From an uncultured cyanobacterium (lineage in GTDB: Bacteria; Cyanobacteriota; Cyanobacteriia; Cyanobacteriales; CAWUOF01), in assembly GCA_963744145.1 (NCBI GenBank), contig CAVUSO010000001.1, forward strand, positions 7,296,001 through 7,360,000: 64,000 nt of DNA. Direction: 5' to 3'. Both the position numbers and the translations under genes were made by a program. This document shows positions 11,732-55,270 of the stretch, one piece after another (positions within the stretch are counted from its first letter, which is position 1; the number at the start of each line of letters is the position of its first letter). A model generated the notes under the pieces. The model was not told where the DNA came from and made no database searches. It saw nothing but the letters and a program-made list of their open reading frames with translations.

Positions 11732-11910
11732 AGCTGTTCGGAACCTCAACGCACGATCTATCGGCTAAAAGTCTATCCTATATTTCCACCTGACTAAAGA
11801 GTGCTGGGAGGAGGTTAAATCAGATCCACTCTGGGATTTGGGATTGTTTGCGGAAACTTTTGGGATAATCTTAATTTTGTATAGGTTAATGCAAAATCTA
11901 GGAGATTAGT

Positions 11911-31667: not shown

Positions 31668-31696
31668 AAGAAATTTGCTGAATATGATTATTGATA

Positions 31697-39547: not shown

Positions 39548-42262
39548 TTAGTTAATATGAGAATCAATCCATTTCAAAATTCCTTCATCATCAAATTCTT
39601 GAGCTAATTTCAAAATTTCCTGGCAAAAATTCCGATATTGCGGGTCAAACTCTTGTAACAGATTAACTTCCCGTTCAACTTTTTCAATATCACCGATTCG
39701 CGCAGCTTTCTGTAAAGATTCTAATTCTGCAAGGGAAGGTATAACCATTATTTTATCTTCATTCACTTCCGGTTTAACCGCAGTAAAATCCGGATTAATG
39801 ATCCATTCTATTTCCAACCGATTTCTCAATTTCTCCAACAGTTCTGGTAATTGGATTGGTTTGAGTAAAAAATCATCACTATTAAAGGGAAGTATCTGTC
39901 GATCGCTGAGAGAAAAATTATTAACAGACATCGCAATAATCGGTATTTTTTGCAATTCCGGTGAATCTTTTAGATGTCGAATCATCTCCATTCCATTCAT
40001 TTTTGGCATCACTAAATCAGTTAAAATTAAATCAGGTTTAGCGATCGCTGCTTTTTCCAAACCTTCTACTCCATCACTTGCTTCGAGCAACTCAAACCCA
40101 TAAGGTTTAAGTAAATCAATCATTAAAGTTCGACTTTCAGTGCGATTATCTACTACCAATAATTTCACTAACTCCCGACCAGTAAAACCAGTAATTATTT
40201 CTGGTTGAGTATATTTAGCTAGTTCTCCTTTTTCTACTCCTAATTCTAGGTTTAAATCAAAATGGAAATCACTTCCTGTACCTAATTCCGAAGAAACTTG
40301 TAAAGTTGAATCCATCAGTTGTAATATTTTTTGACTAATCGCTAGTCCTAATCCCGTCCCTTCCGCTTTACGTTGATTTTCTCCTACCTGTTCAAAAGGT
40401 AAAAAGATTTTATCTATTTGATCAGCAGTAATCCCTACCCCAGTATCTTGAACTGCAAACCGGATTTTTGTAGTTATTTGTCCTTGTTTAGTCACCTGAT
40501 TATTACCCAGTCCGATCACTTTCAAGGTAACCGAACCCTGATCAGTAAATTTAATTGCATTACCTAATAAATTGATTAATACCTGTCGTAACCGTTTTTC
40601 ATCAATCCGGACTCGTTCCGGTAAATTTTCGGCAAATTCACATTGAAAAATTAAATCTTTTGCTTCTGCTTTAATTCGACAAATTTCTGCTACACCTACC
40701 AAAAAACTTGGGAAATATATATCATGAACATAAATATCTAACTTTCTGGCTTCAATTTTTGCTAAGTCTAACAATTCATTAATCAGATTTAATAAATAGG
40801 AACCACTTTCATAAATAATATTGATACCTTTGCGATCGTCTTTAGTCAAATTTTGAGAACGTTGTAAAATTTGGGTATAACCTAAAATCCCATTGAGGGG
40901 TGTTCTAAGTTCATGACTCATCGAAGAGAGAAACTCGCTTTTAGCTTGATTAGCAGAGTCAGCATTTTCTTTAGCTAACTCTAATTCATGAGTTCTTTCT
41001 TTTACTTTTTCTTCCAAGGTTTGAGCATATTCAGCTAACGCTTCGTTGGCTTTTTTTAGCCGGAATTGATTATAATAATTACTAATTAAAATTCCGCTAG
41101 CGACAATTGCTAAAAATGGCGCAAAAAATGGGATTACCCAACCTTGTAAAAAAGCAGTATAGCTAATTAACCAAAGACATATTCCGGCTAAAATAATCAT
41201 CAAACCTGTACTGAGAAAGAACCAATTTTTCCCAGCAATTTTTTTCCGCAAAACCTCCCAAGTGCTAATAGCACTAACTAAAGACCACAGAACAATCCAA
41301 AGTTGATTGACCCATAGCGACCAAACTTGCAATTGATAGCGTCCATCTAAAGCACCGCTTACAATTTGACTACAAATATTCCCGTGAACTACTACACCTG
41401 GAGTAAATAATTTTTGGTTAAATAATGAATTACTATAAGGTGTTTGTAAAATATCGTTGAGACTCAGAGCTGTCACTCCAATTAAGACGATGCGATCGCG
41501 CATGAACCCAGGAGGAATCTGGTTTTTTAATACTTCAGTTAGTGATATGCTAGGAAATTTTTCTAACTGTCCTCGATAATTTAGTAAAAGCTGATATCCT
41601 CCTGTATCTTTTTGGACATAACCCCCTTCATTTCCCTGTAATGGAATCAAAGTAGTTCGACCTAAACCATATTTTTTCTGTTTTTTATCTAATATTTTTG
41701 GTTCAATTCCTTTCTGTTTTAGATAAAATAATGCTAATTTCATTCCCAAGCTTTCTTTTCCTTGCACCGACAATAAAGCTCGACGTACATTACCATCACT
41801 ATCAATGCTCAGATCGGATGCGGCAACTTGGTCAAGTTGATCTAAAGTGGGTGGAGGTGGAATTTTTTCGGGTGTGACTTTTTCCAAACCGATCAGGTTT
41901 GGTGTAGCTTTATATAAAGCAATTAACTGCTGATGTCCTGGTTCTACGGGGATGTCTCGATATAAATCCATCCCAATCACAGCAGGTTTTTGAGCCTTAA
42001 TATATTTTAGCAGTTGGGTTAAGGTCAAATCAGACATTGGCCATTGCCCGACAGCTTTAATATCAGCTTCTCCTGCTGTGACGATGACAATACGATTATC
42101 CGGTGGTTCTGATGAACGTAGACCAAAAAATTGGTCAATTGTTACCCATTCAAGCAATTGGAAAGCACCTGTGATGTTTCCAACTATGACTAATCCACTT
42201 ACAATCAGGGCAATGACAAGAATTTCTCGCCATTCTAACCATTTTCGGATCGGCAGTTTCAT
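39548..42262 (-). CDS. CHASE2-domain hybrid histidine kinase
   Basis: CHASE2 motifs ([31 protein letters not shown]), three TM helices, [10 protein letters not shown] and a receiver domain. Confidence 0.93.
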
Positions 42263-42270
42263 TAACTAAG

Positions 42271-43542
42271 TTATAGTTGTTCCTGCAAAGGTTTTTCGGC
42301 TAAAGATTCTAATTTTACTTGCTTTAACAAATCAGACCATTCTTTGGCCAAATTTGCATCAGTTGGATGGGTGAAACGAGCTGAACTTAATATGCTCAGG
42401 GTATCATACCAAATTCCCGACTTGCCATATAAAGCTGCTAGTTGGATCACATTTAAAGACCCCGATGCTGATGGAGCTGGAACACGCTTTACCCATCCGT
42501 TAATACTGTAAGCATCCGGACGCATAATTTCACCTGGTTTGAGCAGAATGATTGACCATTGATAAGGTTTGCCCATTTCTAAAGGTGGTGCATCTTGGGG
42601 TAATTGAACCCCCACAATACCTCCAGTTTTGTGTAATTCTAGATTTGTTTGATAGTGATACAGTCGATCTTCACTATAAACACTCAAGAAAACATTCTTA
42701 GCGGGTGTATTAGGAATATAGAAAAAGAAAGTTGGATGTTCAGATATTGTTAAACCAATATTGGTGTTTGGTAATAAGGCTGTTGGATAAAGAGTTAGAC
42801 TATCGCTCCGAGAACCTCCTCCTTTGGTGCTGACGGGTTGTTGGTCATCGGTCGAGCCAAAATCTACATCTCCCCGAGAACCTCCTCCTTTGGTAATATG
42901 AGGAGTCTGATCATCAGTTGAGGTGAAATCTACATCTCCCCGAGAACCTCCTCCTTTGACGGTATTGGGAGTCTGATCATCAGTTGAGGTGAAACCGATA
43001 TCCCCTCGAGAACCTCCTCCTTTAACTGTGGTCGGAGTTTTATCCTCAATGGAGCTGAAACTGATCATTCCCCGAGAACCTCCACCCCTAACTGTAGTTG
43101 GGGTTTCGTCTTCAATTGAGCTAAAGTTGATACTGCCCCGAGAACCTCCACCTCTAACTGTGGTTGGGGTTTCGTCTTCAATTGAGCTAAAGTTGATACT
43201 GCCCCGAGAACCTCCACCCCTAACTGTGTTGGGTGTTTGATCATCAGTACCAGTAAAGTTGATACTGCCCCGAGAACCTCCACCCCTAACTGTGTTGGGT
43301 GCTTGATCATCAGTAGTAGTAAAGTTGATATTGCCTCGAGAACCTCCCCCTAACAGTTTATAGGCAGTTTCGTTAGTAGGTGGTGCAAATTGAATATCAT
43401 TTGCTGAAAAAATATGAAGATTAACTGGCACTTCACCAGCATAACTCATGGTAGCCCCTAATGCTACTGATGATGCGATCGCTACTATTCCTAGTTGACG
43501 ATGTATTCTTCTATACTGTCCAGCTTTTTTTGGCCTTTTCAT
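42271..43542 (-). CDS. DUF928 family exported protein with tandem 22-aa GGGSRG repeats
   Basis: Signal-peptide-like N-terminus, nine GGGSR motifs at a 66-nt period, and a DUF928 core (ALLP, PTFFFYIP, GIWYDTL, WSDLLKQVKL). Confidence 0.9.
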   Translation of the reverse strand: MKRPKKAGQYRRIHRQLGIVAIASSVALGATMSYAGEVPVNLHIFSANDIQFAPPTNETAYKLLGGGSRGNINFTTTDDQAPNTVRGGGSRGSINFTGTDDQTPNTVRGGGSRGSINFSSIEDETPTTVRGGGSRGSINFSSIEDETPTTVRGGGSRGMISFSSIEDKTPTTVKGGGSRGDIGFTSTDDQTPNTVKGGGSRGDVDFTSTDDQTPHITKGGGSRGDVDFGSTDDQQPVSTKGGGSRSDSLTLYPTALLPNTNIGLTISEHPTFFFYIPNTPAKNVFLSVYSEDRLYHYQTNLELHKTGGIVGVQLPQDAPPLEMGKPYQWSIILLKPGEIMRPDAYSINGWVKRVPAPSASGSLNVIQLAALYGKSGIWYDTLSILSSARFTHPTDANLAKEWSDLLKQVKLESLAEKPLQEQL

Positions 43543-43887
43543 GGTAGTAAATTACCCTCTCTTTGGAATGGCTATCAACACAATTATATATTTCGTATAC
43601 TAATCTTTATCTTAGTACAACTAATTGCTTGATTCTCAACTTTATCTATTTTTTACAATTGCTTGATTCTCAACTTTATCTTTATCCGATATTTATTCAA
43701 CATTGTCTAATGTCTAGGTCACCAAAGCTTAAAATTAGCTTATTAATTCCTTAACCTAGACATCTTATAATTATACATTTTACCAAATCTGATAATTGTA
43801 TTATTCATTACTTAATTGGACTTCTTGCTAAAATAATTTGGACAGATAGCTGGCCTGCCCCATCTCTGGTCGCCATAATTTTCAGAA

Positions 43888-46617
43888 TTAAAGCCAATTA
43901 CCAACTAAAACAAAAGGAGACCAGAAAAAAGGATGTTGATACTTAGAATGGATTAAAGATATCTGAGCTTGACGTAAAGCTTCAGCTTTGCTAGAAGCAT
44001 CTGTGGTTAATTGATGATAAAAATTGATCATTAATTCAGCCGTAGATTCGTCTCGCACTGACCATAAAGTAGCCATGGTACTGCGGGCACCCGATCGCAG
44101 AGCAATTCCGGCAATTCCTAGAGCAGCTCGTCGATCGCCATCTGCTGTTTGACAAGCACTTAAGACTAAAAGTTGCAGCGGATTTGGCGATTTTCTGGAT
44201 TGGAATGCGAGTAAATCTCCAAATTCTTTGACGTTGATTTCTCCATCCCAAGTGAGGAGAAAAGTTTGTTCAGCATCAGAACTAAATTGACCGTGGGTAG
44301 CTAGATGGATGATATCAAAAGCATTTTCTTCGATTTGGCTTTTTAAACCAGTACGAGTAAATTTTTGATCAAGTAAAGTATGGGAATGGTGGTCTAATTG
44401 AGAAAGAATTTCCTTAATTTCAAGTTTGACTCCTGGTAAAGAAGGAAACCCTTGACGAGATTCAGTCAATCCAGCCGTAAGACTATGTAATCTGTTTTTT
44501 GATAAAGTTTGTGGACTGAGCAAATATAATCCCGAACTCAGAGCAACAGCATAATTTTCGATCAGGTATTGTTTGCCATCATAAAGAGCTGACATGGGAA
44601 TATTGCGGAGAAATCCATCTAAAACGAATACTATAGTTTTAATTTTTTGACGATCTAAATCTGGTTTAACTGGCTTAACCAGCCAGTTATAAACTATCTC
44701 CGAATAGCGTAACCTTTCTTGATCGGAATAGTCATAATTGAAGGAAGAATAAAGTGTTTTTAAAGTCTGATCTACTTCAATTTCAGAGAGTTTAGTAGCA
44801 TAGTGTCTGAGTGGTTGGTGAGGAACAGAAACAATCACTTCTAAGCGATCGCTCAGAAAAACAGGATAAATTACTGCTGCGGTTGGATCGATCTGGTCAA
44901 CCGCCACCGGGCCAGTTCTTAAACAAGTATCTTGGAAATAATTATCTAGTTCAGCTAATTGTAAAAATTTGATCACATTACGAGCCAGTTTCATGTCCTC
45001 TTGACTCGCATTTTCTGACAATAATAAATCGATTAGTTGGCGATGAATGGGTTCAGCGTTCTCATTAAAACTAAACTGAATTTCCCGGTTATTAGCAATG
45101 AGGTCACTGCGTAAATTTTGAATTGCCTGAAAAGCTTCTTGATAGTTAGCGAGGGCTTCTTGGCGTTTACCTTCTTGTTTAAGTAAATGACCAACTTGCC
45201 AAGCAGTAGTAACAATTAATTCATTAGAATTTTTCAGTTGTGCAATTTTTAGAGCAATTTGAGCAAGCTGTTTAGCATCTTCATCCTGTTGTTGGTATTC
45301 ATAAACCTTACTGAGTTGATTAATCGCATAAGCTTCGGCAATTTGATCGTTAATTGTTCGCGCTACATTAATTGCTTTGGTTAAATCTTGCACCCTTTCT
45401 TGCCAATTAATTACCCTGGCATTTTTTTGATTTTGATCTACCAGTTTCATCAAACTCTGGTTGAGATTGACTTGAGTAAAAACATAGTAACGACTAGGTG
45501 GAATCTGGGCAATTTCCGCTTTAACTTCAGGTAGAATGGCGATCGCTTGATCTGCCAATTTTTGCGCCACCATTAAACTTAATTGATTTAATTGAATTTT
45601 GGCTTTTAATCCAGGGTTAGTCGTAATTCTTAAGGCTTTTTTATAAAAATCAAATGCTTCTTCGATCGCATCGTAATCTCTCGCTAGATTAGCTATATCT
45701 AATAAAGTAGCAGCCCGATCATTATTAGTTATTTTCGCATCTTTAATCGCTAAACTTTTTTCGAGGACTTTGACGGATTTGGTAAATTCTCCCATTAATC
45801 TTAATGTTACTCCCAAGCTCCGTAATCCCGATGCTTTTAATACTGGATCAGGTTCTTGTTGAATTTCTTGGAGCGTTTCTTCTAACAATTTCCGACTCCG
45901 CTGATACTGTCCCATGCTCCGGATTGCTTGAGCTTGATTGATTTTGCTCCCCCACATCCCCTGAGAATTTCCGGCTTTTTTGTACAGAGATTCAGATTGT
46001 ATCCAACTTGCTAAAGCTAATTCAGCTTGTCCTGTTTTTAGTTGCGATTTTCCTTGGGTATTCAGAGCTTGTGCTAATACAGACCATCCAATTGGATCTG
46101 CTGCAGCTTGATTTTCCAATAACTTGATGCTACTTTCAATGGCTTTATCGGCCAGTTGCCATTCTCCTAAATCTTGATATGCTGAAGATATGTTAGTTAA
46201 TAATGATGCTTGGGGTAAAATTAGTTTCTCAGATGCTAGAATATTTAGGGCTTGTTGCCAAATCGCGATCGCTTCTTGATAGCGTCCCTCTTGCTCGAGT
46301 TTTCTTCCTTGTTCTATTAATCCTTCTGGTGTTTGGACTTGTTCAACCACTCCCATATTTGTTGGGACATGGGCAAAAACTGGCATCACTAGCGTTACTA
46401 ATAATAAAGCTACCAAACCTAACCCTAAATAAAAAGAAGATCTGGCTAACTTTCTCAGGAAGTTTTCCAGAAGTAATACCAATTTAATGTGAAGTTGCAC
46501 AAAGCTAAATCCCCCTAAATCCCCCTTAAGAAGGGGGACTTTTAATTCTGGCTCCCCCTTTTTAAGGGGGTTGGGGGGATCAATTCTATGCAGCTTTTTT
46601 TTGAAAAATTTATACAT
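43888..46617 (-). CDS. TPR-CHAT (caspase-like clan CD) protease
   Basis: Hydrophobic signal/TM segment, TPRs, catalytic HLATHG and LSACQTA, ending HPFFWSPFVLVGNWL. Confidence 0.93.
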   Translation of the reverse strand: MYKFFKKKLHRIDPPNPLKKGEPELKVPLLKGDLGGFSFVQLHIKLVLLLENFLRKLARSSFYLGLGLVALLLVTLVMPVFAHVPTNMGVVEQVQTPEGLIEQGRKLEQEGRYQEAIAIWQQALNILASEKLILPQASLLTNISSAYQDLGEWQLADKAIESSIKLLENQAAADPIGWSVLAQALNTQGKSQLKTGQAELALASWIQSESLYKKAGNSQGMWGSKINQAQAIRSMGQYQRSRKLLEETLQEIQQEPDPVLKASGLRSLGVTLRLMGEFTKSVKVLEKSLAIKDAKITNNDRAATLLDIANLARDYDAIEEAFDFYKKALRITTNPGLKAKIQLNQLSLMVAQKLADQAIAILPEVKAEIAQIPPSRYYVFTQVNLNQSLMKLVDQNQKNARVINWQERVQDLTKAINVARTINDQIAEAYAINQLSKVYEYQQQDEDAKQLAQIALKIAQLKNSNELIVTTAWQVGHLLKQEGKRQEALANYQEAFQAIQNLRSDLIANNREIQFSFNENAEPIHRQLIDLLLSENASQEDMKLARNVIKFLQLAELDNYFQDTCLRTGPVAVDQIDPTAAVIYPVFLSDRLEVIVSVPHQPLRHYATKLSEIEVDQTLKTLYSSFNYDYSDQERLRYSEIVYNWLVKPVKPDLDRQKIKTIVFVLDGFLRNIPMSALYDGKQYLIENYAVALSSGLYLLSPQTLSKNRLHSLTAGLTESRQGFPSLPGVKLEIKEILSQLDHHSHTLLDQKFTRTGLKSQIEENAFDIIHLATHGQFSSDAEQTFLLTWDGEINVKEFGDLLAFQSRKSPNPLQLLVLSACQTADGDRRAALGIAGIALRSGARSTMATLWSVRDESTAELMINFYHQLTTDASSKAEALRQAQISLIHSKYQHPFFWSPFVLVGNWL
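46477..46614. mobile_element. 138-bp MITE/REP element inserted in frame in the CHAT 5' end
   Basis: One end is TACCAATTTAATGTGAAGTTGCAC, related to the 297-bp MITE TIR; the other end is degenerate. Internal CCCCCTTAAGAAGGGGG and CCCCCTTTTTAAGGGGG hairpins. Confidence 0.75.
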
Positions 46618-48482
46618 ACTAGATTTTTGAGTTTACCTTGATCCGAGAGTTACTCGATTAACTTTAATTATTTTAAGTGTTGCTCTTGTTCACTAAAATA
46701 TTTATCACTGCTACTTTAATCTGTTATAATTTCTAGGTTAAATTTTTAGTTAACCCTAGTTTTCTAAATTTATTAGGCACTGCCAGTAATCTAGCGCGAT
46801 CGGTACAGAAAAAAGATTAAAATTAGGTTAAGCTATGTTTAAAATCCTTGACAATTCCTGGGGCGATCGGCTAGGAGCGGCGAGTTCGGCCCAGAAGCGC
46901 TCAAAACAATTTCTCCTTTTTCATTGATTTGCCATCCTGTGACTTCTCTAATTACTGGTAAGGTGGGAGTTGTTAATCTAGCCGAAGAATTAGCAGAATT
47001 TTGGGATAAGACTTGACTGGTGTAATCTGTGTAATCTTGCCAAATATCCTCACTATTAAATGGTTTGCTCGGATCATCTGATAAACCACCCCTTCTGGTG
47101 ATCTTAAACGTATCGCCACTACGTTTGGTACAATCGGCAATAATTTGATGAGAAGCATCAGCGAATTGTTGTGGTAGTTCGATTAATTCCGCACTGGTTT
47201 TAAGATCAGGAGTATTGACTTTGACATTACCAGAAATTCCAAATTGAGAAGAAGCAGTAATATTACTATCAGGAGAAAGGAACAAACCCGTAGTAGTAAT
47301 TAAAATATTACCACCGCTACCTCGGACAGCATTAGCATTAATGGTACTACCTTCAATGGCAGCGATCGTACCAGAATTAATGGTCAAATTGCCCCCATCA
47401 CCAACTGAGCCTAAAGCATCTACAATGATTTCACCACTATGGCGTAATTGCAAGGAATCTTGCACATTCAGAATCACATTACCACCCTGTCCAGATGCGG
47501 TAGAGCCAGTAATAAAGCCACCACGCTGTAATAATACATCTGTAGCATTTAACTGGAATTTTCCCGCATTTCCAGTTCCTTGATGTTGTACACCAACTCG
47601 CGCCCCATCTTGCACTGTCAGACGACCTGTATTAATAGTTAATTCACCTGTATTTCCTGAAAAATTAGGTGGCAATCCGAAATAATTGAGAATTTCATCA
47701 TTTAATTTAAAACCACTAGCTGAGATATCTGAAGGCTCTCCATCAGATTTAGTACCGCTAACCAAAATTGAGTCTGGGGCGTTAATTGTAACTTTACCAG
47801 CATTCCCAGAAGTGCTAGTTGTAGAATTTACTTGTCCGCCATCAAGAACGGTTAATTTAGGCGTATTAATCAGAGTATTACCTGCATTTCCAAATGCAAA
47901 AGTATAGGTGCTGATATAACTCGCAGCCAATAAAAGCGATGGGGGTGCTGTTCCAACCACTTCAATACTCTCAGATGCCTTGATATTAATATTACCACCA
48001 TTTCCCGTTCCATTTCCTGGTAATTCTTGTCCGATTCGATTAAGGGGAGAAGTATATATAGTTGATCCTAGTAAACCTCCATTTGTAATGCTTAATCTAG
48101 AGGTAGATAAATTCACATCACCCGCCGAGCCACTGTTATAAGTTACGCTACTGATTGCGCTATAAATAGGAGTATTATCATTACTATTTATAGCTCCATT
48201 AATATTTACTAACTGGCTAGCATCAATAGTAATATTGCCAGCATTGCCTGTTCCATTTCTAGGTGCTGGTTCTGCGATTTGGTAAGGAAATACTGCTGTT
48301 AAAATTTCACTTCCACTGTCAAGTCTCAATTGTTGGGTTGATATCGCTACATTCCCTCCATTTGATCCTCCCGAAGTATCTGACCAAATTCCCCCACTGA
48401 AATCACTTTCAAAGGAATTTATTCCATTTGCGGAGATTGAGTCAGAAGCATTAACGCTGATATCTCCTCCAATTCCATTTCC

Positions 48483-49939
48483 CAGGGTAAGAGCATCTCA
48501 ATTAGGCTTGACACAAGGATTAAGAAGGATCTAATGTAGACTCAGAGAAACAAGAAAGGAGGATTTGGAGCATATAATTATTATCCATAGCAGCGCGTTT
48601 ACTTTTCTGGCGTAAACTGCGTTTGTAAGTTGACTCGCGATTAAGAGCGTTGAGAGCTAATCGTCTGAGCAGAGAAAAGTTACGAGGACTGTGAAAAGAA
48701 CGAATGCGACAGCTATCTTCAAAAAAAGTACAATCTAAAGTCCAGTGTGCAGAATTTTCGATTTCCCAATGTTGACGAATAGCTCGACCTATGAATTCAG
48801 CATTGTTGTCTAAAGAAGTAAGATAGTATTGAGTCTCGCAAGTAGTTTTGTTCCAAAGATGACGGATACGATGAATGATGACAATACTTTTTAAACCTGC
48901 CCATAATTTGGGTTGGTAAAGGTCAGGAATGGCCGTAATAGGGAACACCCAAACTTCACGAATTTCCACCCGATGATGCCCTTTCTCAATCCGTTTGTCA
49001 TGAGTGAAATCAATTCCTGAAAAATTATTTTTCTGTGCAGTTTGGAAGAATTGTTGTACCTGATTATGTAAAGTTGGATGATTGGCTTTAAGTGTCAGAA
49101 TATAATCAGCTTTTTTATCAATAATCTTTTGAGCAATTTCGGTTTGGGTCCCCATCGCATCAATAGTAATAATTGAGCCAGCGATATCAAGTAACTCTAG
49201 TAATGCTGGAATAGCTGTAATTTCATTGGATTTATCTTGGACTTTCATTTGTGCTAAAACTAATCGTTGTTCACTAGCCCACGCACTAATCAAATGTAAT
49301 GCTGATTGTCCTTGATTTCGGTCATAGGAACCTCTGACAGTCTTCCCATCTATGGCAATTACTTCTCCTCCCATTTGAGTAACTAAGGTGTTTACCCAAG
49401 CTTGAAAACATTGCTCCAATTGGTTGGGGTTAATACTTTCAAATACTCGACGAAAGGTATCATCTGAGGGAATACCATTGGGTAATTCTAAAAACTCTTC
49501 TAGCCAAATTTGTTTACTAATCCCATAATTCTCAATGTCTTCCCAGCCTTGTGCTCCAGCTATTATGGCCAGAATTGCCATCACTAAAATGTCTATCAAT
49601 AAGTGTTTTTTTGTTCGGTTTACTCTCGGGTCTTCAACATCTTCAAAATGCTTGACTAAACTCTGTTGTATTTCCATCAAGTCAGCTACTACTTGGTTTT
49701 TCCTAGCAGAATGGGAGTTTTGTTTAGCATTAGCTATATTGATATCGAACCCTTGAGACATTTGAATATTCCTGGAGATTATGAGTTGGACGGTATAGTT
49801 TTTCACCTACCACTCTCTATGCTCTTTTGTCAACTATTTTCTCTACCAGATTTGTGATGTTCTGATCTCGATGGCTATATTTCATATTTGATGAAAATAT
49901 TCTGTATCCTCGGTGACAAAATTAGATGCGCTAACCCTG
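48483..49939 (-). mobile_element. ISAs1-family insertion sequence
   Basis: TIRs CAGGGTAAGAGCATCT / AGATGCGCTAACCCTG, with an 11-bp direct repeat ATTCCATTTCC on both flanks. Confidence 0.93.
48520..49761 (-). CDS. ISAs1 family transposase
   Basis: DPR, PSDDTFRR, IAIDGKT, KSNEI, TIDAMG and HWEIEN motifs; ORF intact. Confidence 0.95.
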   Translation of the reverse strand: MSQGFDINIANAKQNSHSARKNQVVADLMEIQQSLVKHFEDVEDPRVNRTKKHLLIDILVMAILAIIAGAQGWEDIENYGISKQIWLEEFLELPNGIPSDDTFRRVFESINPNQLEQCFQAWVNTLVTQMGGEVIAIDGKTVRGSYDRNQGQSALHLISAWASEQRLVLAQMKVQDKSNEITAIPALLELLDIAGSIITIDAMGTQTEIAQKIIDKKADYILTLKANHPTLHNQVQQFFQTAQKNNFSGIDFTHDKRIEKGHHRVEIREVWVFPITAIPDLYQPKLWAGLKSIVIIHRIRHLWNKTTCETQYYLTSLDNNAEFIGRAIRQHWEIENSAHWTLDCTFFEDSCRIRSFHSPRNFSLLRRLALNALNRESTYKRSLRQKSKRAAMDNNYMLQILLSCFSESTLDPS

Positions 49940-51578
49940 ATTCCATTTCCTTGAGTTAGAGAATAAATTCCCCCTCCATTAGATAAAGTTAATCGATCTG
50001 TGGACAGAGCAATTTTTCCGCCATTTCCTCCACCCAAACTTATACTATTTAAGCCACTACCAAAGGAATAAAAAGGGTTGGCATTATTGGCGATAATATC
50101 GGTAGCATTGACAGTAATATTACCACCATTTCCCGGGGCATTTTGTCCTACCAATGTAGTGATTTGCCCCCCATTAGTTAGCATCATTTCTCTAGTTGAG
50201 ATTTTGATATCTCCTCCATTACCAGTCGCAAAATTTTCGCTACTGATCCGACTATTAGGATTTTTGTCTAGCTGAATTGGAGTAGTGCTGGTTGGTGATA
50301 CCCCATCGATGTTAATTGTATCGGCTGTGACTGTAATATTTCCAGCTATTCCTTGTCCTAAATTTAAGGTTTCGATCCGTCCCCCATCTTGAATATTGAT
50401 TTGGGGTGCAGTAACAGCGATCGCACCTCCTTGACTACTAGATCCTGATTCAATTTGATTCACAATTGCGGAACTTAAACCAGAGTTTGTCCCAGCAATT
50501 TCCAGAGATTTACTAGCAGCGATCGCGATATTACTCCCAGTTCCAATCCCATTATTACTCGCGCTAATTTGGGAACCATTGAGGATACCGATATCACCAC
50601 CAACTAAGGAAATACCACTATTACCTAGGTTGGAAACATTCACGACCGAGGAACTCAAGGTAATATTGCCAAACTGTTGCACCTGAGCATATCCTAAAGT
50701 CCATCCAGATAGATTTTGGGAAAGACTAACTTGTCCTAATTTCACGCTCCCAATTTCAATCCGTCCTCCGGTCGCGATCGCACTGGCACCTGTTAAAACT
50801 ACATCTCCACCAACTAATGCTAATGTATTTCCAGGCGCAACCGTTAAACTTCCTGAACTTTGCACTGTCCCTGAATTAGGTTGATTCCATTGTAAACCGA
50901 TCGGAACATTCATGCTCAACAATGGAGGAGCCTGTGGATTACTAGCACTATAAATACTACCATTGGATAGTTGAATACTGTTAGCGGTACTACCGAAAAA
51001 AGCACCACCAATATTTAAGCTGGTATTCGGTCCAAAAATTATCCCGTTCGGATTAGTTAAAAATAAATTTGCTCTACCGTTAGTATGAATTGAACCATCT
51101 ATATTAGAAATATTCTTACCTGTGACACGGGTGAGAATATTGTCAATTCCAATTGCATTATTAAAAAATGCTCCTGTATTCGTAGGAATCGAAAATTCTT
51201 GGAAACTATGGAAAAGTATATTACCTGATCTGGTCCCCCCTTCAATTTGAAAGGTATTCCCTTGATGGCTTACAACTGAAGGTTGAGATAACGTAGCATC
51301 AGGAACAATTTGGGCTGTTGCTATATTTGCCCAACTCAGAAATATAATTATGCTAAAACTACGGCATAGCATAGAGTTTTCCTAGGCGTATTTATAACGC
51401 ACTTATGAAACAGATTTAGTTCAAACTTACATAACCTCTTCTTAACATCCCATCGTTATATTATAATAAAACTAAGATCAGATTAAGATTAGTTTAAAGA
51501 CTATCAGTAAATAGGCGATCGGGGGATGACTCCCCCTTAAAAAGCAGGGCTATTTCATGCTCGATTCTCATATAATCT

Positions 51579-51703
51579 GACCTAACCCCCCAACCTCTTC
51601 CCTAGGAGGGCAGGGGGAGTAATTAAGATGATTAAATTGATGGGAGTGAATCAGACTCATTCTTGCTCCCCTTTCCTCTTAGGAGAGGGGTTGGGGGAGA
51701 GGT
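51579..51703. repeat. G/C-run REP-like repeat
   Basis: Second copy of the family at 25375-25470. Confidence 0.75.
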
Positions 51704-51781
51704 TCTGCTATCAAATAATATATGATTGTATGATAATTATGCGATCGCTATATGAGCAAAAAAAATCAGCCTAAATTAAAT

Positions 51782-54700
51782 TTAGTTTAAATTCCCTTGA
51801 CAAGAGGATGGGTAGAGAAAGGAAGAAAGAGAATTTGCTTCAGATGTAACTAAAACAATTTCTCCTTTTTCATTAACTTTCCAACTATTTGCTTCCCTAA
51901 TTATTGGTAAGGTAGGAGTTATTAATTTAGCCGAAGAATGAGCAGAATTTCGTCCTAAAAATTGACTGGTGTAATCTGTCCGATCTTGCCAAATATCCTC
52001 ACTATTAAATGTTTGACTTGGCTCTTCTGATCTCCCACTCCGTCCACTTACCTTAAATGTATCTCCACTCCGTTTGGTACAACCGGCTACAATTTGATGA
52101 GCAGGATCAGTAAATTGTTGTGGTAAATTAATGAATGCAGCTACAGATTGGATATCAGGAGTATGGACAGAAACATTTCCAGACACTCCAAATTGGGAAG
52201 AAGCTGTAATCTGACTATCAGGGAAAGTAAACAATCCTTGAGTAGTAATAAAAATATTACCCCCCTCTCCTTTAACAGCATTAGCACTGATGATGCTAGT
52301 TTCCAAATTAGCTAAAGTATCTGTATTAATATTAATATTACCCCCATTCGCAATCCCTTGAGCTTGCACAGTAATTTGACTTTGATCGCGTAACAGTAGA
52401 CTGTGGGAATTAATGGTAACATTTCCCCGATCGCCCGAAATAGCTGAGACGGCAATTTGCCCATGATTATTCAGCAATACCGAATTAGCTTGAATATCCA
52501 CATTTCCAGCTTGAGAAACTCCCTGTCCGACCTGGGGAACATCAGCAATTTGGAAGTTACTTGCGTTAATTAAAGCACCATCACGAACAATTAACTGATT
52601 CGTTTTAATCGCAATATTACCCGCATCTCCGATCGCACTTGCAGCATTAGTAAATATGCCATTACTACTAATGCTATCAGTTCCAGCAAGTTCCACGCGA
52701 TCGCGAGCATTAACTGTGATATTGCCACCTTTTCCATTCCCAATACTCGAACTAGTTAGACGTACACCTACTCCCTGATCTAACAATAGCGTACCTGTAT
52801 TAATTACAATATTACCTGAATCTCCATAAAAACGAGTATTAGCAGTAATCCCGGCTGTCGTACTACCAAAAGTCCGACTACTAGCACCGATTAATTTAAT
52901 TTGATTAGCTGCATTAATAGTTAGTGTTCCTGTTTTACCTGTTCCTTGAGTATCGGTAGAAATATTTCCTTGCTGAATCAGTAAATTACCAGTATTAATA
53001 GTCAAATCTCCCCCATTACCACTGTCATTAATTCTTGCTACAATTCCGGAGGTACTGGTATTAATTAAGTTGATATCTTGGGCAGAATTTATCAATAAAC
53101 TACTCCCCATACTGTTAGGTTGGGAACTAAAGGTATTAACATTTATTTCTGCACCATTTTGCACTGTTAACGTTCTCGTATCAATTCTTAATAGTCCCCC
53201 GTTACCAGTAGCTCCTGGTCTAATTTGGGAAAATATCCCACTGCTGTCTATATTATTAGATGATACTCCTGATATCTGAATCTGATCAGCAATAATATTG
53301 AGATTACCAAGATTACCAGCACCATTGATATTACCAGCAATCCGAGCGCCATTGCTAATTAATAATTTATTAGTATTAACATTCAGATTTCCCGTGTTTC
53401 CTAGTCCAGAAGATAGGGTTAAAATCCCACTATTTACTTGTTGGTTAGGATTAAAATTGTTAGGATTTAGATTAGTAGCTTTAATCACTGATGGATTACC
53501 AGGATTAGCAACAGAAATTTGTAAAGTGTAAGTTTGTCCCGGTTGGGGAGCTTTCCCCTCTAAAGGTACATTATCTGAAAGAGTAGTATTATAAACACCA
53601 ACCGCAATCACATAAGTACCTGGTTGTTTGAGCGTAGTAGAAAGATAGGAATCGTTCCTAAATGTACTACCTCCAGCACCATTTGTGATCGGAGAATCAT
53701 CATTACTACCAAGTAATGCTCCCGTCTTGCGATCGAATAAGAATATCTGGGTATCAATATTACCTGGAGCTAGACGTACAGAAGTTTTTTCACCATAATC
53801 GATATCAAAAATAGCTTTTGAATTCGGTTGACTGGTCGCAAATTGATAGTAGTCATAAGAGGTAGTTGCTGGACCTAATGGTGTTCCCCCCTGAACTACT
53901 TGGGTTGGTGTTCCCCCTAGAACAATTTGAGTAGGTGTTCTCGAAACAGAGACATGGGGAATAGTCTGGGATGATTCTATATTTGGATTAGCTTGGGTAT
54001 TAAAATTACTGGGAACGAGCGTATAGCTGGTGACTTGATCAAAAGGATTATTAGTAAAGTTGTTACTAATCCCGTCTAATGATGCTGTATCTGTAACTTT
54101 TACATTAATATCTCCCCCATTACCTTTACTAGTGCTTGAAGTCAGAACTTGTCCTCCAGTTTGGAATTGTAAATTACCTGTATTGATCTGGATTAGTCCA
54201 CTCGGATTATTACTATTAGTTACTGTCGCGATAAAACCCCGATCCGATATATTTAAACTCCCCTGGGGATTATTAATTGTAATGTTCCCACTCGGACCAC
54301 TGGTTTCATTGAGGGAACGAGTTAAAATCCCACTAAAAAGTCCATCCGTTGTAAACCCAGAAATATCAATATTGTTCTGAGCATTAATTACAATATTTCC
54401 TGATGCTCTACTATCACTGGTGATCGTTTGAATTCGTGAACCATCTTGTAATTTTAAAGTACCCGTATTAATTTGAATCGGTTGGAAACTATTCCCAATT
54501 AAACTTTGTTGACTCAACCGAGTAGCTTGGGTAGTATTAATCGCGATCGCTCCTGATGTTCCTTGGATTTGACTAGCGGTTAAATCCAGATTATTACTAT
54601 TAAGATTAATTTCACCTCCTTGCAATTGAGCGGTTTGGAAACTAAGATCAGTTGCTAATAAAGATAAATTGCCAGAACTAGTTAAATTACTTCCTTGAAA

Positions 54701-55270
54701 TTGGATTGAATTACGGGGATTACTATATTGTAATCCGGCTGGTACATTAATAGTTAATAATGGTGGTGCTTGGGGATTAGTAGCACTAAAACTTTGATCA
54801 TTATTAAACAGAATACTATCTGATGTTACTAAATTAAGTGAACCTTTAAGATCTAGTTGAGCATGAGAACCAAAAATAATCCCATTCGGGTTAATCAAAA
54901 ACAGATTAGCATTTCCTAATACACCCAAAGTCCCGTTAATATTGGAAGAATTAACACCGGTAACCCGCGTGAATATATTAGATATTCCGACTGGATTATT
55001 AAAATATGCCGCACCTCCAGTTGGAACATTAAATTGTTGAAAACTATGAAATAAATTACTCCCTCTTGTAGTTCCACCTTGAATCAGCAATTTATTACCT
55101 TGGTTACCAACCTGAGAAGGATTCGGTAATGTTACATCAGGCACAATTTGGGCTTGGGAGATATTTGCCCAATTCACCAATATGATTAGATTCACTATAC
55201 TAAATTGACTTATTTGTTTACCAAATTTAGTCCCATTGGTATTAGTAATAAACTTTAGTAAGCTATTCAT
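51782..55270 (-). CDS. Filamentous haemagglutinin / TPS-domain exoprotein with inserted PPC-like domain
   Basis: Signal peptide ending AQIVPD, NLFHSFQQFN, NPNGIIFG, beta-helix repeats, and the insert DTQIFLFD...NDD...GTYVIAV. Confidence 0.9.
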   Translation of the reverse strand: MNSLLKFITNTNGTKFGKQISQFSIVNLIILVNWANISQAQIVPDVTLPNPSQVGNQGNKLLIQGGTTRGSNLFHSFQQFNVPTGGAAYFNNPVGISNIFTRVTGVNSSNINGTLGVLGNANLFLINPNGIIFGSHAQLDLKGSLNLVTSDSILFNNDQSFSATNPQAPPLLTINVPAGLQYSNPRNSIQFQGSNLTSSGNLSLLATDLSFQTAQLQGGEINLNSNNLDLTASQIQGTSGAIAINTTQATRLSQQSLIGNSFQPIQINTGTLKLQDGSRIQTITSDSRASGNIVINAQNNIDISGFTTDGLFSGILTRSLNETSGPSGNITINNPQGSLNISDRGFIATVTNSNNPSGLIQINTGNLQFQTGGQVLTSSTSKGNGGDINVKVTDTASLDGISNNFTNNPFDQVTSYTLVPSNFNTQANPNIESSQTIPHVSVSRTPTQIVLGGTPTQVVQGGTPLGPATTSYDYYQFATSQPNSKAIFDIDYGEKTSVRLAPGNIDTQIFLFDRKTGALLGSNDDSPITNGAGGSTFRNDSYLSTTLKQPGTYVIAVGVYNTTLSDNVPLEGKAPQPGQTYTLQISVANPGNPSVIKATNLNPNNFNPNQQVNSGILTLSSGLGNTGNLNVNTNKLLISNGARIAGNINGAGNLGNLNIIADQIQISGVSSNNIDSSGIFSQIRPGATGNGGLLRIDTRTLTVQNGAEINVNTFSSQPNSMGSSLLINSAQDINLINTSTSGIVARINDSGNGGDLTINTGNLLIQQGNISTDTQGTGKTGTLTINAANQIKLIGASSRTFGSTTAGITANTRFYGDSGNIVINTGTLLLDQGVGVRLTSSSIGNGKGGNITVNARDRVELAGTDSISSNGIFTNAASAIGDAGNIAIKTNQLIVRDGALINASNFQIADVPQVGQGVSQAGNVDIQANSVLLNNHGQIAVSAISGDRGNVTINSHSLLLRDQSQITVQAQGIANGGNININTDTLANLETSIISANAVKGEGGNIFITTQGLFTFPDSQITASSQFGVSGNVSVHTPDIQSVAAFINLPQQFTDPAHQIVAGCTKRSGDTFKVSGRSGRSEEPSQTFNSEDIWQDRTDYTSQFLGRNSAHSSAKLITPTLPIIREANSWKVNEKGEIVLVTSEANSLSSFLYPSSCQGNLN

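What the first reader, a model, noticed from the sequence alone, without database searches (positions are those of the whole stretch)
39548..55270. TPS adhesins + TPR-CHAT protease + repeat-bearing DUF928 + CHASE2 kinase: candidate extracytoplasmic proteolytic signalling system
Seen: five co-oriented genes, with DUF928 and the CHASE2 kinase only 8 bp apart. The CHAT His/Cys dyad is intact, and all the products have export or membrane signals. Known: CHAT is a clan CD protease, and its relatives separase and gingipain R cut after Arg. CHASE2 is an extracellular sensor domain whose ligand I do not know. This gene neighbourhood recurs in cyanobacteria, but I know of no established mechanism for it. 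Inference: the TPS protein activates CHAT, CHAT cleaves DUF928 at GGSR|G, and the products are read by CHASE2.
Basis: partly seen in the sequence, partly recalled or inferred. Interest (0 to 1): 0.85.

Follow-up and report, generated by a model that had tools for sequence, protein, structure and literature searches.

The report
Cyanobacterial TPS–CHAT–DUF928–CHASE2 sensing cassette
This is one copy of a widespread but unstudied cyanobacterial gene set in which a membrane sensor of unknown ligand (CHASE2) sits beside an exported caspase-like protease, a small exported protein with an invariant arginine motif and adhesin-like exoproteins, which suggests a testable way the sensor is fed; one adhesin-like gene here is broken by a jumping gene.

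Summary
The genes are real and sit at the stated coordinates, all on the minus strand. They are TPS1, TPS2, TPR-CHAT, DUF928 and a CHASE2 hybrid histidine kinase.

The linkage is strongly conserved. In 79 DUF928 loci from other cyanobacteria, CHAT lies directly upstream in 56 of 66 assessable loci. CHASE2 lies directly downstream in 56 of 66, and a TPS gene lies upstream in 37 of 56. No other gene family recurs in more than 14 of the 79 loci. The linked CHASE2 sensors carry at least five different cytoplasmic outputs, so the conserved unit is the extracytoplasmic input.

Nearly every DUF928 protein checked has 1-9 copies of an N-terminal module ending G-G-G-x-R, and the Arg was present in all I inspected. 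The module is absent from the neighbouring TPS, CHAT and CHASE2 proteins. The CHAT His/Cys dyad is invariant in 67 of 67 sequences. A published cyanobacterial CHAT protease, HetF, cuts strictly after Arg.

Cleavage, binding and any role for TPS remain inferences. AlphaFold2 gives the repeats a beta-rich fold at intermediate confidence, which supports a non-cleavage rival.

Verdict: a real, conserved and undescribed sensory cassette. Its mechanism is plausible but unproven.

The parts
51782..55270 (-). TPS1: intact 1162-aa TpsA-type exoprotein. It has an N-terminal signal-like segment, a TPS secretion domain at residues 40-278, beta-helix repeats, a weak PPC-like insert, and a conserved C-terminal domain with no Pfam model.
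   Evidence: PF05860 1.1e-47; PPC 0.0022, below cutoff; TIGR01901; C-terminal consensus over 55 sequences; no Pfam hit for the last 200 aa at E<=10; C-terminal relatives are all TPS-domain proteins.
49940..51372 (-). TPS2, 5' part, up to and including the first copy of the 11-bp target duplication. The called ORF runs on to 49882 into IS sequence.
   Evidence: (PF05860 2.5e-56).
48483..49939 (-). ISAs1-family insertion sequence of 1457 bp. The transposase gene is at 48520-49806. It has imperfect terminal inverted repeats and is flanked by identical 11-bp direct repeats at 49940-49950 and 48472-48482.
   Evidence: DDE_Tnp_1_assoc, DDE_Tnp_1; NF033564 3.3e-125.
46839..48482 (-). TPS2, 3' part: beta-helix repeats plus the same conserved C-terminal domain as TPS1. 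Together with the 5' part it forms one 1021-aa frame once the IS and one repeat copy are left out.
43888..46617 (-). Exported TPR-CHAT cysteine protease of 909 aa as called. Alternative starts are GTG at residue 40 and TTG at residue 46. It has one N-terminal hydrophobic segment (about residues 57-82), a TPR array, and a CHAT domain at 638-907 with H775 and C822.
   Evidence: (dyad invariant 67/67; 58 of 64 relatives have the N-terminal hydrophobic segment).
42271..43542 (-). DUF928 protein of 423 aa. It has a signal-like N-terminus, nine 22-aa modules each ending GGGSR (DNA array 42808-43351), and then the DUF928 domain (about residues 250-420), modelled as a beta-sandwich plus three helices.
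   Evidence: (domain pLDDT >90).
39548..42262 (-). CHASE2 hybrid histidine kinase of 904 aa. Layout: TM1, an outside CHASE2 domain (about residues 31-315), three TM helices, HisKA, HATPase_c, REC, and a ~90-aa tail.
   Evidence: 32 invariant sensor positions in 65 sequences; pLDDT 89.5, pTM 0.88.
55899..56264 (-). Stand-alone receiver-domain protein just upstream of TPS1. It is a possible phosphorelay partner of the hybrid kinase, but its membership in the cassette is not shown.
   Evidence: Response_reg 7e-29. It is not among the recurrent neighbours, apart from REC-GGDEF-EAL proteins in 14 of 79 loci.

Best explanation
The interval encodes one copy of a conserved cyanobacterial input module for CHASE2 receptors. 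The module has four extracytoplasmic parts:
1. TpsA-type beta-helical exoproteins. There are two here, and one is inactivated by an IS.
2. An exported TPR-CHAT cysteine protease.
3. An exported DUF928 protein. Its N-terminus carries one to nine copies of a module F-x-x-P-x-D-x-x-P-x4-G-G-G-[S/T/V]-R.
4. The outside-facing CHASE2 domain of a membrane receptor, here a hybrid histidine kinase.

Most likely working:
- DUF928 is the periplasmic partner, or the ligand precursor, of CHASE2.
- The TPR-CHAT protease controls DUF928 by cutting after the conserved Arg of the module. This either trims DUF928 to an active or inactive form or releases ~22-aa peptides.
- The TpsA protein reaches the cell surface and supplies or gates the stimulus.
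- The receptor then passes the signal to whichever cytoplasmic output it carries.

Shown here: the gene content, the conserved and rearrangement-tolerant linkage, the variable outputs, the conservation and specificity of the motif, the invariant catalytic dyad, the co-divergence of CHAT, DUF928 and CHASE2, and the predicted outside location.

Inferred: every physical contact, the cleavage itself, its site, and the direction of information flow.

My odds:
- About 0.8 that the four families work together as an input to CHASE2.
- About 0.6 that DUF928 contacts CHASE2 directly.
- About 0.4 that CHAT cuts DUF928 after the motif Arg.
- About 0.25 that TPS acts upstream of CHAT.
For: Linkage:
- Of 79 DUF928 loci fetched from other genomes, a CHAT ORF occurs in 66 loci, CHASE2 in 65 and a TPS domain in 44.
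- Among loci with enough flank, CHAT is directly upstream on the same strand in 56 of 66. CHASE2 is directly downstream in 56 of 66, with a median gap of 91.5 nt and a minimum of 3. A TPS gene is upstream in 37 of 56.
- No other family occurs in more than 14 of 79 loci.
- In 7 annotated plasmid loci with only 27-40% identical DUF928, CHASE2 is adjacent in 5 and CHAT adjacent in 5. TPS is present in 3. Orders and strands differ: CHASE2 precedes DUF928 in 4.

The input module is the conserved unit:
- 63 linked CHASE2 proteins were scanned.
- Their outputs are HK+REC (13), HK+REC+cyclase (14), PP2C/SpoIIE (14), cyclase with or without PAS (14), GGDEF (2) and HK without REC (3). Three more are cut by the locus end.

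Motif:
- R223 and F206 are invariant in the first 23 homologues.
- Over 157 motif instances, F is at -13 in 146 and P is at -5 in 152. The residue after R is G in 115, D in 22 and S in 11.
- The pattern P-x4-G-G-G-[STAV]-R occurs 186 times in 73 of 78 DUF928 ORFs. It occurs 0 times in 55 TPS, 68 CHAT and 66 CHASE2 ORFs, and 2 times in 2099 other ORFs.
- The regex misses that I inspected all carry variants that keep the Arg.

Protease:
- H775 and C822 are invariant in 67 of 67 sequences.
- The Anabaena CHAT protease HetF cuts PatU3 after Arg117. The R117A, R117D and R117H substitutions abolish cleavage (PMC9457339, passages).

Co-divergence: distance matrices over 28 complete cassettes correlate at r = 0.92-0.95 among CHAT, DUF928 and CHASE2. 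None of 300 permutations reached these values.

Location. Some DUF928 relatives also carry a peptidoglycan-binding domain.

Precedents for CHASE2 depending on a secreted or outer-membrane helper:
- A LysM-FecR protein is encoded just upstream of CHASE2 kinases in Burkholderiales (PMC5192318, passages).
- The outer-membrane protein NsrA acts upstream of the S. meliloti CHASE2 cyclases (PMC13001267, passages).
Against:
- AF2 places short beta strands through the repeat region at pLDDT 63-83, with GGGSRG as turns. This fits a folded beta-rich stalk as well as a string of cleavage sites.
- Each module holds about 3 Pro and 5-6 Gly. The conserved residues could be structural or could form a binding motif rather than a cleavage site.
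- CHAT is missing next to DUF928 in 10 of 66 assessable loci, and in 2 of the 7 plasmid loci where CHASE2-DUF928 stands alone. Cleavage by a linked CHAT therefore cannot be obligatory everywhere.
- CHASE2 is missing downstream in 10 of 66 loci.
- No TpsB transporter gene is in the window or among the 18 most frequent neighbour families. Surface export of the TPS proteins is assumed, not shown.
- Co-divergence and synteny can reflect co-inheritance alone.
- The 79 loci are the best 80 of 171 hits, so they are biased towards close relatives of the query. The family has 7143 clusters.
- CHAT proteases do not all cut after Arg. From recall, the type III-E Craspase cuts after Leu or Met.
Confidence: 0.45

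Rival explanations
1. Same cassette, different wiring. DUF928 is a stable co-sensor bound to CHASE2. Its N-terminal modules are a folded beta-rich stalk or a docking motif, for example for the TPR array or for the end of the TpsA beta-helix, and are not cut. The substrate of TPR-CHAT is the conserved C-terminal domain of the TpsA protein, which holds its own conserved G-R-G-G element. This would resemble the periplasmic processing of the FhaB prodomain.
For: - AF2 predicts regular short strands in every repeat at pLDDT 63-83.
- The TPS C-terminal domain is conserved over 55 sequences. Its T-G-R-G-G-L-P stretch is at >=80% conservation, apart from the T at 50-80%. It has no Pfam model.
- TPS and CHAT are neighbours, and they stay paired when inverted as a unit (A. 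cylindrica plasmid).
- Regulated periplasmic degradation of a TpsA C-terminal prodomain is known for FhaB (abstracts seen in the listing: PMC4542190, PMC8263021).
Against: - Most family members have a single module, which cannot form a repeat fold on its own.
- The Arg is kept even where the rest of the module decays.
- In the window the TPS element is degenerate: G-R-S-G in TPS1 and R-R-G-G in TPS2.
- TPS is the least tightly linked member.
Confidence: 0.25
2. The TPS, CHAT and DUF928 genes form an adhesin secretion and maturation unit. The CHASE2 receptor is only its transcriptional or second-messenger regulator, linked for co-regulation. It senses some unrelated small ligand and makes no contact with the other three.
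For: - Regulators are often encoded beside what they regulate.
- TPS-CHAT-DUF928 trios occur without an adjacent CHASE2 gene (for example L033, L049, L071, L072 and L076).
Against: - The outputs are of at least five biochemically unrelated kinds, while the sensor domain stays 55% mean column identity with 32 invariant positions.
- DUF928-CHASE2 adjacency survives where TPS and CHAT are absent.
- Gaps between DUF928 and CHASE2 are as small as 3-20 nt, and 8 nt in the window.
- The CHASE2 sensor co-diverges with DUF928 at r = 0.94.
Confidence: 0.12
3. A conflict system: contact-dependent inhibition (a TpsA toxin) or a CHAT-based defence or abortive-infection module, as with CHAT proteases of CRISPR type III-E or gasdermin systems.
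For: TpsA proteins include CdiA toxins, and CHAT proteases occur in defence systems (recalled). Several loci are on plasmids.
Against: - The TPS C-termini are conserved between paralogues and across species rather than polymorphic. They have no toxin domain in Pfam, and no small immunity-like gene follows them.
- The CHAT protein has an export or anchor segment.
- No cas or gasdermin domains were found in the Pfam scans of the window ORFs.
- The constant partner is a signal-transduction receptor.
Confidence: 0.04

Closest known systems
HetF-PatU3 of Anabaena PCC 7120, a CHAT protease with a defined substrate (PMC9457339)
   Same: It is a cyanobacterial CHAT-domain Cys protease combined with TPR repeats and a membrane segment. 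It acts on one specific regulatory substrate and depends strictly on a P1 Arg. The scissile bond there is R|S. Here the candidate bond is R|G in 8 of 9 modules and R|S in the last.
   Different: The HetF CHAT domain is cytoplasmic with periplasmic TPRs, according to that paper. Here TPR and CHAT follow a single N-terminal hydrophobic segment, so both are predicted to be outside. The substrate, partners and pathway (cell division and heterocysts) are unrelated. Homology beyond the Pfam family was not measured here.
LysM-FecR protein + CHASE2 histidine kinase operon of Burkholderiales ('BiofilmReg', PMC5192318)
   Same: A secreted accessory protein is encoded immediately upstream of a CHASE2 kinase, with a gap of about 10 bp. 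The CHASE2 ligand is unknown. Some DUF928 proteins also carry a peptidoglycan-binding domain.
   Different: The accessory protein there is FecR-type, not DUF928. A Pfam scan of the DUF928 domain at E<=10 gives only DUF928. That operon has no CHAT protease and no TPS protein.
NsrA -> CyaD1/CyaD2/CyaK of Sinorhizobium meliloti (PMC13001267 and the references it cites)
   Same: This is the only CHASE2 pathway with a known stimulus. A protein signal is perceived through an outer-membrane protein and relayed to CHASE2 receptors, so it is a trans-envelope input.
   Different: The outer-membrane part is a beta-barrel, not a TpsA exoprotein. No protease or DUF928 is involved.
Two-partner secretion with periplasmic processing of the TpsA C-terminus (Bordetella FhaB/FhaC; DegP, CtpA, SphB1)
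   Same: Both have an N-terminal TPS domain with the NPNG element, a long beta-helix and a conserved C-terminal region. A dedicated protease is encoded or acts nearby.
   Different: No TpsB gene is in the window or in the conserved neighbourhood. The protease here is clan CD (CHAT), not a serine protease. The cassette is tied to a signalling receptor.
TPR-CHAT (Csx29) protease of type III-E CRISPR 'Craspase' (recalled, not examined here)
   Same: The TPR + CHAT architecture, and a protease that cuts one dedicated partner protein encoded next to it in order to pass on a signal.
   Different: Craspase is cytoplasmic and RNA-activated through Cas7-11, and cuts after Leu or Met. No cas genes are in the window, and phmmer of the window CHAT protein against PDB sequences found only TPR proteins.

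Membership tests
TpsA exoproteins (two-partner secretion, type Vb) | N-terminal TPS secretion domain with the NPNG element | tested here: met
   PF05860 at 1.1e-47 (TPS1) and 2.5e-56 (TPS2). TIGR01901 adhes_NPXG at 1e-23 and 9e-24. N-P-N-G-I is present in both translations.
TpsA exoproteins (two-partner secretion, type Vb) | Cognate TpsB (Omp85/POTRA) transporter encoded with it | tested here: not met
   No such domain was found in the Pfam scans of the long ORFs of the 64-kb window. None of the 18 most frequent neighbour families in 79 loci is a TpsB. The rest of the genome could not be searched.
CHAT peptidases (clan CD, caspase-haemoglobinase fold) | CHAT domain with the catalytic His and Cys | tested here: met
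   PF12770 at 2.4e-60 over 287 of 289 profile positions. H775 and C822 are invariant in 67 of 67 sequences.
CHAT peptidases (clan CD, caspase-haemoglobinase fold) | Proteolytic activity and P1 preference | not testable with these tools
   Only precedent is available: HetF cuts after Arg.
DUF928 (PF06051) | Full-length match to the family profile | tested here: met
   6.1e-47, profile positions 2-184 of 184. The family has 7143 50%-identity clusters at E<=1e-3.
CHASE2 receptors | CHASE2 domain between one N-terminal TM helix and a cluster of TM helices, followed by a cytoplasmic output | tested here: met
   PF05226 at 6.6e-62. AF2 helices lie at 5-30, 316-339, 347-372 and 380-400, with an alpha/beta domain between them. 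Hydropathy. HisKA, HATPase_c and REC follow.
ISAs1-family insertion sequences | ISAs1 transposase, terminal inverted repeats, target-site duplication | tested here: met
   NF033564 at 3.3e-125. The ends match at 19 of 30 positions as inverted repeats, and the 11-bp direct repeats are identical.
Contact-dependent inhibition (CdiA/CdiB/CdiI) | Polymorphic C-terminal toxin followed by an immunity gene, with CdiB adjacent | tested here: not met
   The C-termini are conserved across 55 TPS proteins. No toxin domain is present. The downstream genes are TPS2 and CHAT, and no TpsB is present.
Type III-E CRISPR Craspase (Cas7-11 + TPR-CHAT) | TPR-CHAT encoded with Cas7-11 and a CRISPR array; cytoplasmic | tested here: not met
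   No Cas domains were found in the window ORF scans. The CHAT protein has an N-terminal export or anchor segment. No CRISPR-specific search was run.
FecR-type accessory proteins of CHASE2 kinases | FecR domain in the protein encoded next to CHASE2 | tested here: not met
   A Pfam scan of the DUF928 domain at E<=10 returns only DUF928. Foldseek gives only generic Ig/FN3-like matches.

The most novel reading that the evidence does not exclude
The N-terminal arrays of DUF928 are polyprotein precursors. The exported TPR-CHAT protease cuts after each G-G-G-x-R and releases identical ~22-residue Pro/Gly-rich peptides into the periplasm, nine per molecule in this window. These peptides, or the newly exposed N-terminus of the DUF928 domain, are the long-sought ligands of CHASE2 receptors. 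This would be a bacterial counterpart of prohormone processing or of protease-activated receptors. The TpsA filament would couple peptide release to events at the cell surface. In filamentous cyanobacteria, whose cells share an outer membrane, such peptides could travel between cells.
Probability: 0.12. Interest if true: 0.9.

Novelty: new variant of a known kind. Interest (0 to 1): 0.7.

Why it matters
CHASE2 is one of the common extracytoplasmic sensor domains of bacteria. In the passages I read, its ligand is still called unknown (PMC10581220, PMC5192318).

DUF928 is a large family of 7143 clusters at 50% identity. I found it mentioned in only one paper of the searched library.

The survey turns a vague neighbourhood into a defined, testable module:
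- DUF928-CHASE2 is a constant pair.
- An exported caspase-like protease and TpsA exoproteins are frequent third and fourth members.
- The module is plugged into kinase, cyclase, PP2C and GGDEF outputs.
- One invariant Arg is an obvious point of attack for experiments.

If the proteolytic relay is right, it would be a new way for bacteria to feed a membrane receptor. It would also give a periplasmic role to CHAT proteases, which are otherwise known from cytoplasmic differentiation and defence systems.

Tried and rejected
- Complex prediction. The queue was full, and the tool was declared unavailable. Nothing was folded, so nothing follows for or against binding.
- Locus search. The search for related loci with the 23-sequence alignment A1 failed for lack of a conserved stretch. 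A 10-sequence alignment, A2, worked.
- Fold comparison.
  - The DUF928 model's best PDB matches are FN3/Ig-like domains and MtxA-C (E 7e-4 to 1e-3, TM-score normalised to target length <=0.65). They are uninformative.
  - The CHASE2 model (pLDDT 89.5) has no PDB match better than E 0.35. My idea that CHASE2 might be caspase-like found no support.
- PDB sequence search. The CHAT protein matched only TPR proteins.
- Fusion (Rosetta-stone) search. None of the DUF928 relatives of 742-2115 aa scored. The tool calls this weak evidence. Longer representatives carry a second DUF928 domain, pentapeptide repeats or a PG_binding_1 domain, but not CHAT or CHASE2.
- Pfam at E<=10 on the TPS C-terminal domains gave nothing usable.
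- The promoter and terminator scan was uninformative: 50 promoter-like sites against 59.3 expected. A weak terminator-like hairpin lies after the CHAT gene.
- The CDI, Craspase and chance-neighbourhood readings were rejected, as given under the rivals and the membership tests.
- Literature searches:
  - 'DUF928': 1 paper.
  - 'CHAT domain'+'CHASE2'+'cyanobacteria': 0 papers.
  - 'CHASE2'+'CHAT': 3 papers, none on this cassette.
  - 'CHAT domain'+'two-partner secretion': 0 papers.
  - Mixed-term searches, and 'sll1891', found no description of the cassette.
  - Subscription-only papers are outside the library.
- Unchecked. The rest of the window's genome, including any TpsB, could not be searched.

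Full report
WHAT IS THERE

The interval 39548-55270 holds seven co-oriented minus-strand ORFs. Pfam and NCBIfam assign them as follows:
- 51782-55270: a 1162-aa TpsA-type exoprotein (TPS domain, E 1e-47).
- 49882-51372: the 5' part of a second TPS gene (E 2.5e-56).
- 48520-49806: an ISAs1-family transposase (NF033564, E 3e-125).
- 46839-48329: an ORF with no family.
- 43888-46617: a TPR-CHAT protein (CHAT, E 2.4e-60).
- 42271-43542: a DUF928 protein (E 6e-47).
- 39548-42262: a CHASE2-HisKA-HATPase-REC hybrid kinase (CHASE2, E 6.6e-62).

The 8-bp spacing between DUF928 and CHASE2 is correct.

The family-less ORF is the 3' part of TPS2. A 1457-bp element at 48483-49939 has imperfect terminal inverted repeats (19 of 30 positions) and identical 11-bp direct repeats on both sides. 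Leaving out the element and one repeat copy gives a single open frame of 1021 aa. Three alternative joins hit stops near residue 485-499. There are two TPS genes, and one has been knocked out by a transposition that still has intact target duplications.

No TpsB transporter is encoded anywhere in the 64-kb window.

THE PROTEINS

- TPS1 and TPS2 share an N-terminal signal-like segment, the TPS domain with the N-P-N-G-I element, and beta-helix repeats.
- They also share a C-terminal domain of about 150 aa that is conserved over 55 cassette-linked TPS proteins. It includes two Cys and a G-R-G-G-L-P stretch. It has no Pfam model. Its database relatives are all TPS-domain proteins, and those with a source name are cyanobacterial.
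- The CHAT protein has one hydrophobic segment (about residues 57-82) ahead of the TPR array. 58 of 64 relatives have such a segment. H775 and C822 are invariant in 67 of 67 sequences, as are H771, D667, D680, D828 and D856.
- DUF928 has a signal-like N-terminus, then nine 22-aa modules each ending GGGSR. The next residue is G in eight modules and S in the last. The DUF928 domain follows. The DNA repeat has a 66-nt period at 83-84% identity, so it is not an assembly artefact of identical copies.
- AlphaFold2 with an 85-sequence alignment models the DUF928 domain at pLDDT above 90, as a beta-sandwich (262-353) plus three helices (365-408). It gives the repeats short strands at pLDDT 63-83, with GGGSRG as turns. 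Foldseek finds only generic Ig/FN3-like folds.
- The CHASE2 region (1-401) is modelled at pLDDT 89.5 and pTM 0.88. It has one TM helix, an alpha/beta outside domain and three further TM helices. It has no PDB match better than E 0.35.
- Within the cassette the CHASE2 sensor is very conserved: 55% mean column identity, with 32 invariant positions that include several Asp, Arg, His, Asn and Ser.

LINKAGE ACROSS GENOMES

A DUF928 profile fetched 79 loci from species-representative genomes. These are the best 80 of 171 confirmed hits. They are overwhelmingly filamentous and pleurocapsalean cyanobacteria.

I called ORFs and searched them with the window's domains. This found CHAT in 66 loci, CHASE2 in 65, a TPS domain in 44 and DUF928 ORFs in 77.

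Counting only loci with enough flanking sequence:
- CHAT is directly upstream on the same strand in 56 of 66.
- CHASE2 is directly downstream in 56 of 66. The gaps are 3-445 nt, median 91.5.
- A TPS gene is upstream in 37 of 56.

Among 495 other neighbour ORFs, no family is present in more than 14 of 79 loci. The top family is a REC-GGDEF-EAL protein, and none of the 18 commonest is a TpsB. The ten loci without a downstream CHASE2 carry unrelated genes there.

At least ten assemblies contribute two or three loci. This is read from the contig names. One locus, L006, has two cassettes in tandem. The cassette therefore duplicates as a unit.

Distance matrices over 28 complete cassettes correlate at r = 0.92-0.95 among CHAT, DUF928 and the CHASE2 sensor, and at 0.67-0.74 with TPS. 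None of 300 label permutations reached these values. This shows co-divergence, which co-inheritance alone could produce.

An independent and more distant sample points the same way. tblastn of the DUF928 domain against annotated plasmids hit 22 cyanobacterial records at 27-40% identity, and I examined seven:
- CHASE2 is adjacent to DUF928 in five. In four of these the order is CHASE2 then DUF928.
- CHAT is adjacent in five, on either strand.
- TPS is present in three.
- In Anabaena cylindrica the TPS-CHAT pair converges on the CHASE2-DUF928 pair from the opposite strand.
- Two loci (Nostoc PCC 7120 alpha plasmid, Nostoc NIES-3756) have CHASE2-DUF928 with no CHAT in view. The plasmid gene tables are incomplete.

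The association therefore survives rearrangement. That argues for function rather than frozen synteny, and it marks DUF928-CHASE2 as the core pair. A passage in PMC5587647 had noted one such Nostoc punctiforme cluster without interpreting it.

THE INPUT MODULE IS WHAT IS CONSERVED

The cytoplasmic parts of 63 linked CHASE2 proteins fall into these classes:
- HisKA-HATPase-REC: 13
- the same plus a cyclase domain: 14
- PP2C/SpoIIE: 14
- adenylate/guanylate cyclase, with or without PAS: 14
- GGDEF: 2
- kinase without REC: 3
- cut by the locus end: 3

One extracytoplasmic gene set feeding five or more output chemistries is what one expects if TPS, CHAT and DUF928 act on the sensor side.

THE MOTIF

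In the first 23 homologues, the Arg of GGGSR and a Phe 17 residues before it are invariant.

Over 157 instances, the module reads [V/I]-x-F-x-[P]-[P]-[G]-[D/E]-x-[A]-P-x-x-[T/S]-x-G-G-G-[S/T]-R-[G/D/S]. F is present in 146 and the P at -5 in 152.

A pattern for the module's core occurs 186 times in 73 of 78 DUF928 ORFs. It never occurs in 55 TPS, 68 CHAT or 66 CHASE2 ORFs, and it occurs twice in 2099 other ORFs.

Every apparent exception that I read has a variant that keeps the Arg. Examples are GGGVR, GGASR and GGGRR, and in distant plasmid relatives A-A-A-R or G-A-N-R.

Copy number runs from 1 to 9:
- It is mostly 1 with cyclase-type receptors.
- It is 3-7 with kinase-cyclase receptors and 1-8 with PP2C receptors.
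- The window's nine copies are at the top of the range seen.

In single-copy proteins the module sits just after the signal peptide, with its Arg a median of 31 residues before the domain core. It is often followed by a Cys within 8 residues (56 of 86).

HOW IT MOST LIKELY WORKS

All four products are predicted to be outside the cytoplasmic membrane or in it. I therefore read the set as an extracytoplasmic relay into CHASE2.

The best-supported single link is DUF928 with CHASE2. The two show constant adjacency in both gene orders, tiny intergenic gaps and co-divergence. There is also a parallel in Burkholderiales, where a secreted LysM-FecR protein is encoded about 10 bp upstream of CHASE2 kinases (PMC5192318, passages). 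Some DUF928 proteins likewise carry a peptidoglycan-binding domain.

The second link is CHAT acting on DUF928. The evidence is the conserved, family-specific Arg in a Gly-rich, Pro-rich module, the invariant catalytic dyad, and the fact that the cyanobacterial CHAT protease HetF needs a P1 Arg (PMC9457339, passages). TPR arrays commonly bind extended peptides (general knowledge), which would suit the F-x-x-P-x-D-x-x-P part of the module. Cleavage would either trim DUF928 or release 22-residue peptides.

The third link is TPS as the surface-exposed input. It rests only on linkage and on analogy. In S. meliloti, CHASE2 cyclases perceive a protein signal through an outer-membrane protein (PMC13001267, passages). 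The C-terminal prodomain of FhaB is processed in the periplasm (abstracts in the listing).

WHAT SPEAKS AGAINST IT

- No binding or cleavage was tested. The complex predictor was unavailable.
- AF2 gives the repeats regular short strands at intermediate confidence. This fits a folded stalk or docking array as well as it fits a string of cleavage sites. The conserved TPS C-terminal G-R-G-G element is an alternative CHAT substrate.
- CHAT is absent beside DUF928 in 10 of 66 loci, and CHASE2 in 10 of 66.
- The 79 loci are close relatives within a family of 7143 clusters. Frequencies elsewhere are unknown.
- Export of the TPS proteins needs a TpsB that I could not find.

COMPARISON AND NOVELTY

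Each part is a member of a known family (see the membership tests). The TPS genes lack an adjacent TpsB. The cassette is not a CDI locus: its C-termini are conserved and there is no immunity gene. It is not a Craspase either: there are no cas genes and the CHAT protein is exported.

The combination of TpsA, exported TPR-CHAT, DUF928 and CHASE2 is not described in any paper that my searches reached. Those searches cover only open-access papers and preprints.

In kind, it would belong with accessory-protein-dependent and protease-dependent extracytoplasmic signalling. I therefore rate it a new variant of a known kind. The window's copy is an ordinary member, apart from its high repeat number and its IS-broken TPS2.

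Noticed in passing
window 48483-49939: A 1457-bp ISAs1-family element with identical 11-bp target duplications splits the second TPS gene. The intact duplications and the clean frame restoration suggest a recent insertion. A related ISAs1-like transposase also sits near the cassette on the Gloeothece PCC 7424 plasmid.
   Followed up: yes
window 46839-47441 and 51782-52384; loci L001-L079: The TPS proteins of these cassettes share a C-terminal domain of about 150 aa. It has two conserved Cys, a G-R-G-G-L-P stretch and a V-E-A-T-G-W hairpin-like motif. It has no Pfam model. A further paralogue of 830 aa lies elsewhere on the same 7.63-Mb contig.
   Followed up: partly
L080 (Nostoc PCC 7120 alpha plasmid) and L086 (Anabaena cylindrica plasmid): In Nostocales plasmid loci a DUF1822 protein is encoded near CHASE2-DUF928 (directly upstream in A. 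cylindrica). In PCC 7120 a sigma-70 family factor accompanies it. This may be a further, lineage-specific member of the module.
   Followed up: no
proteins P0170, P0132, P0033, P0029: Some DUF928 proteins carry an N-terminal PG_binding_1 domain, pentapeptide repeats, or two DUF928 domains in tandem.
   Followed up: partly
window 5487-9440 (+): A 1317-aa protein with many leucine-rich repeats followed by COR-A and COR-B domains. It is a ROCO-like architecture in a cyanobacterium.
   Followed up: no
window 9725-11749 (-): Arginine decarboxylase appears split into two ORFs. One is 517 aa with the PLP and helical-bundle domains. The other is 152 aa with the C-terminal extension. This could be a frameshift, a stop, or a sequencing error.
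   Followed up: no
window 15238-16471 (+): An IS605 OrfB/TnpB-like gene is split into two overlapping ORFs, one with the OrfB_IS605 part and one with the TNB part. It is probably degraded.
   Followed up: no
window 19768-25189 (-): A Ser/Thr kinase-AAA_16 protein (702 aa) lies immediately upstream of a GAF-histidine kinase (1092 aa) on the same strand. Two further hybrid kinases lie at 28965-33397. The region is dense in signalling genes.
   Followed up: no
window 38450-39093 (+): A UPF0175 antitoxin-like gene overlaps a 125-aa ORF by 4 nt. That ORF has a weak PIN-like match (E 0.013). The pair is a likely toxin-antitoxin system just downstream of the CHASE2 kinase.
   Followed up: no
window 60172-63832 (+): Two large overlapping-end ORFs of 638 and 587 aa have no Pfam or NCBIfam match.
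   Followed up: no
literature: PMC2853523 (passages): A Trichodesmium erythraeum metacaspase (peptidase C14, also clan CD) is reported as fused to a CHASE2 domain. This is a different way in which a caspase-like protease and CHASE2 are combined.
   Followed up: no
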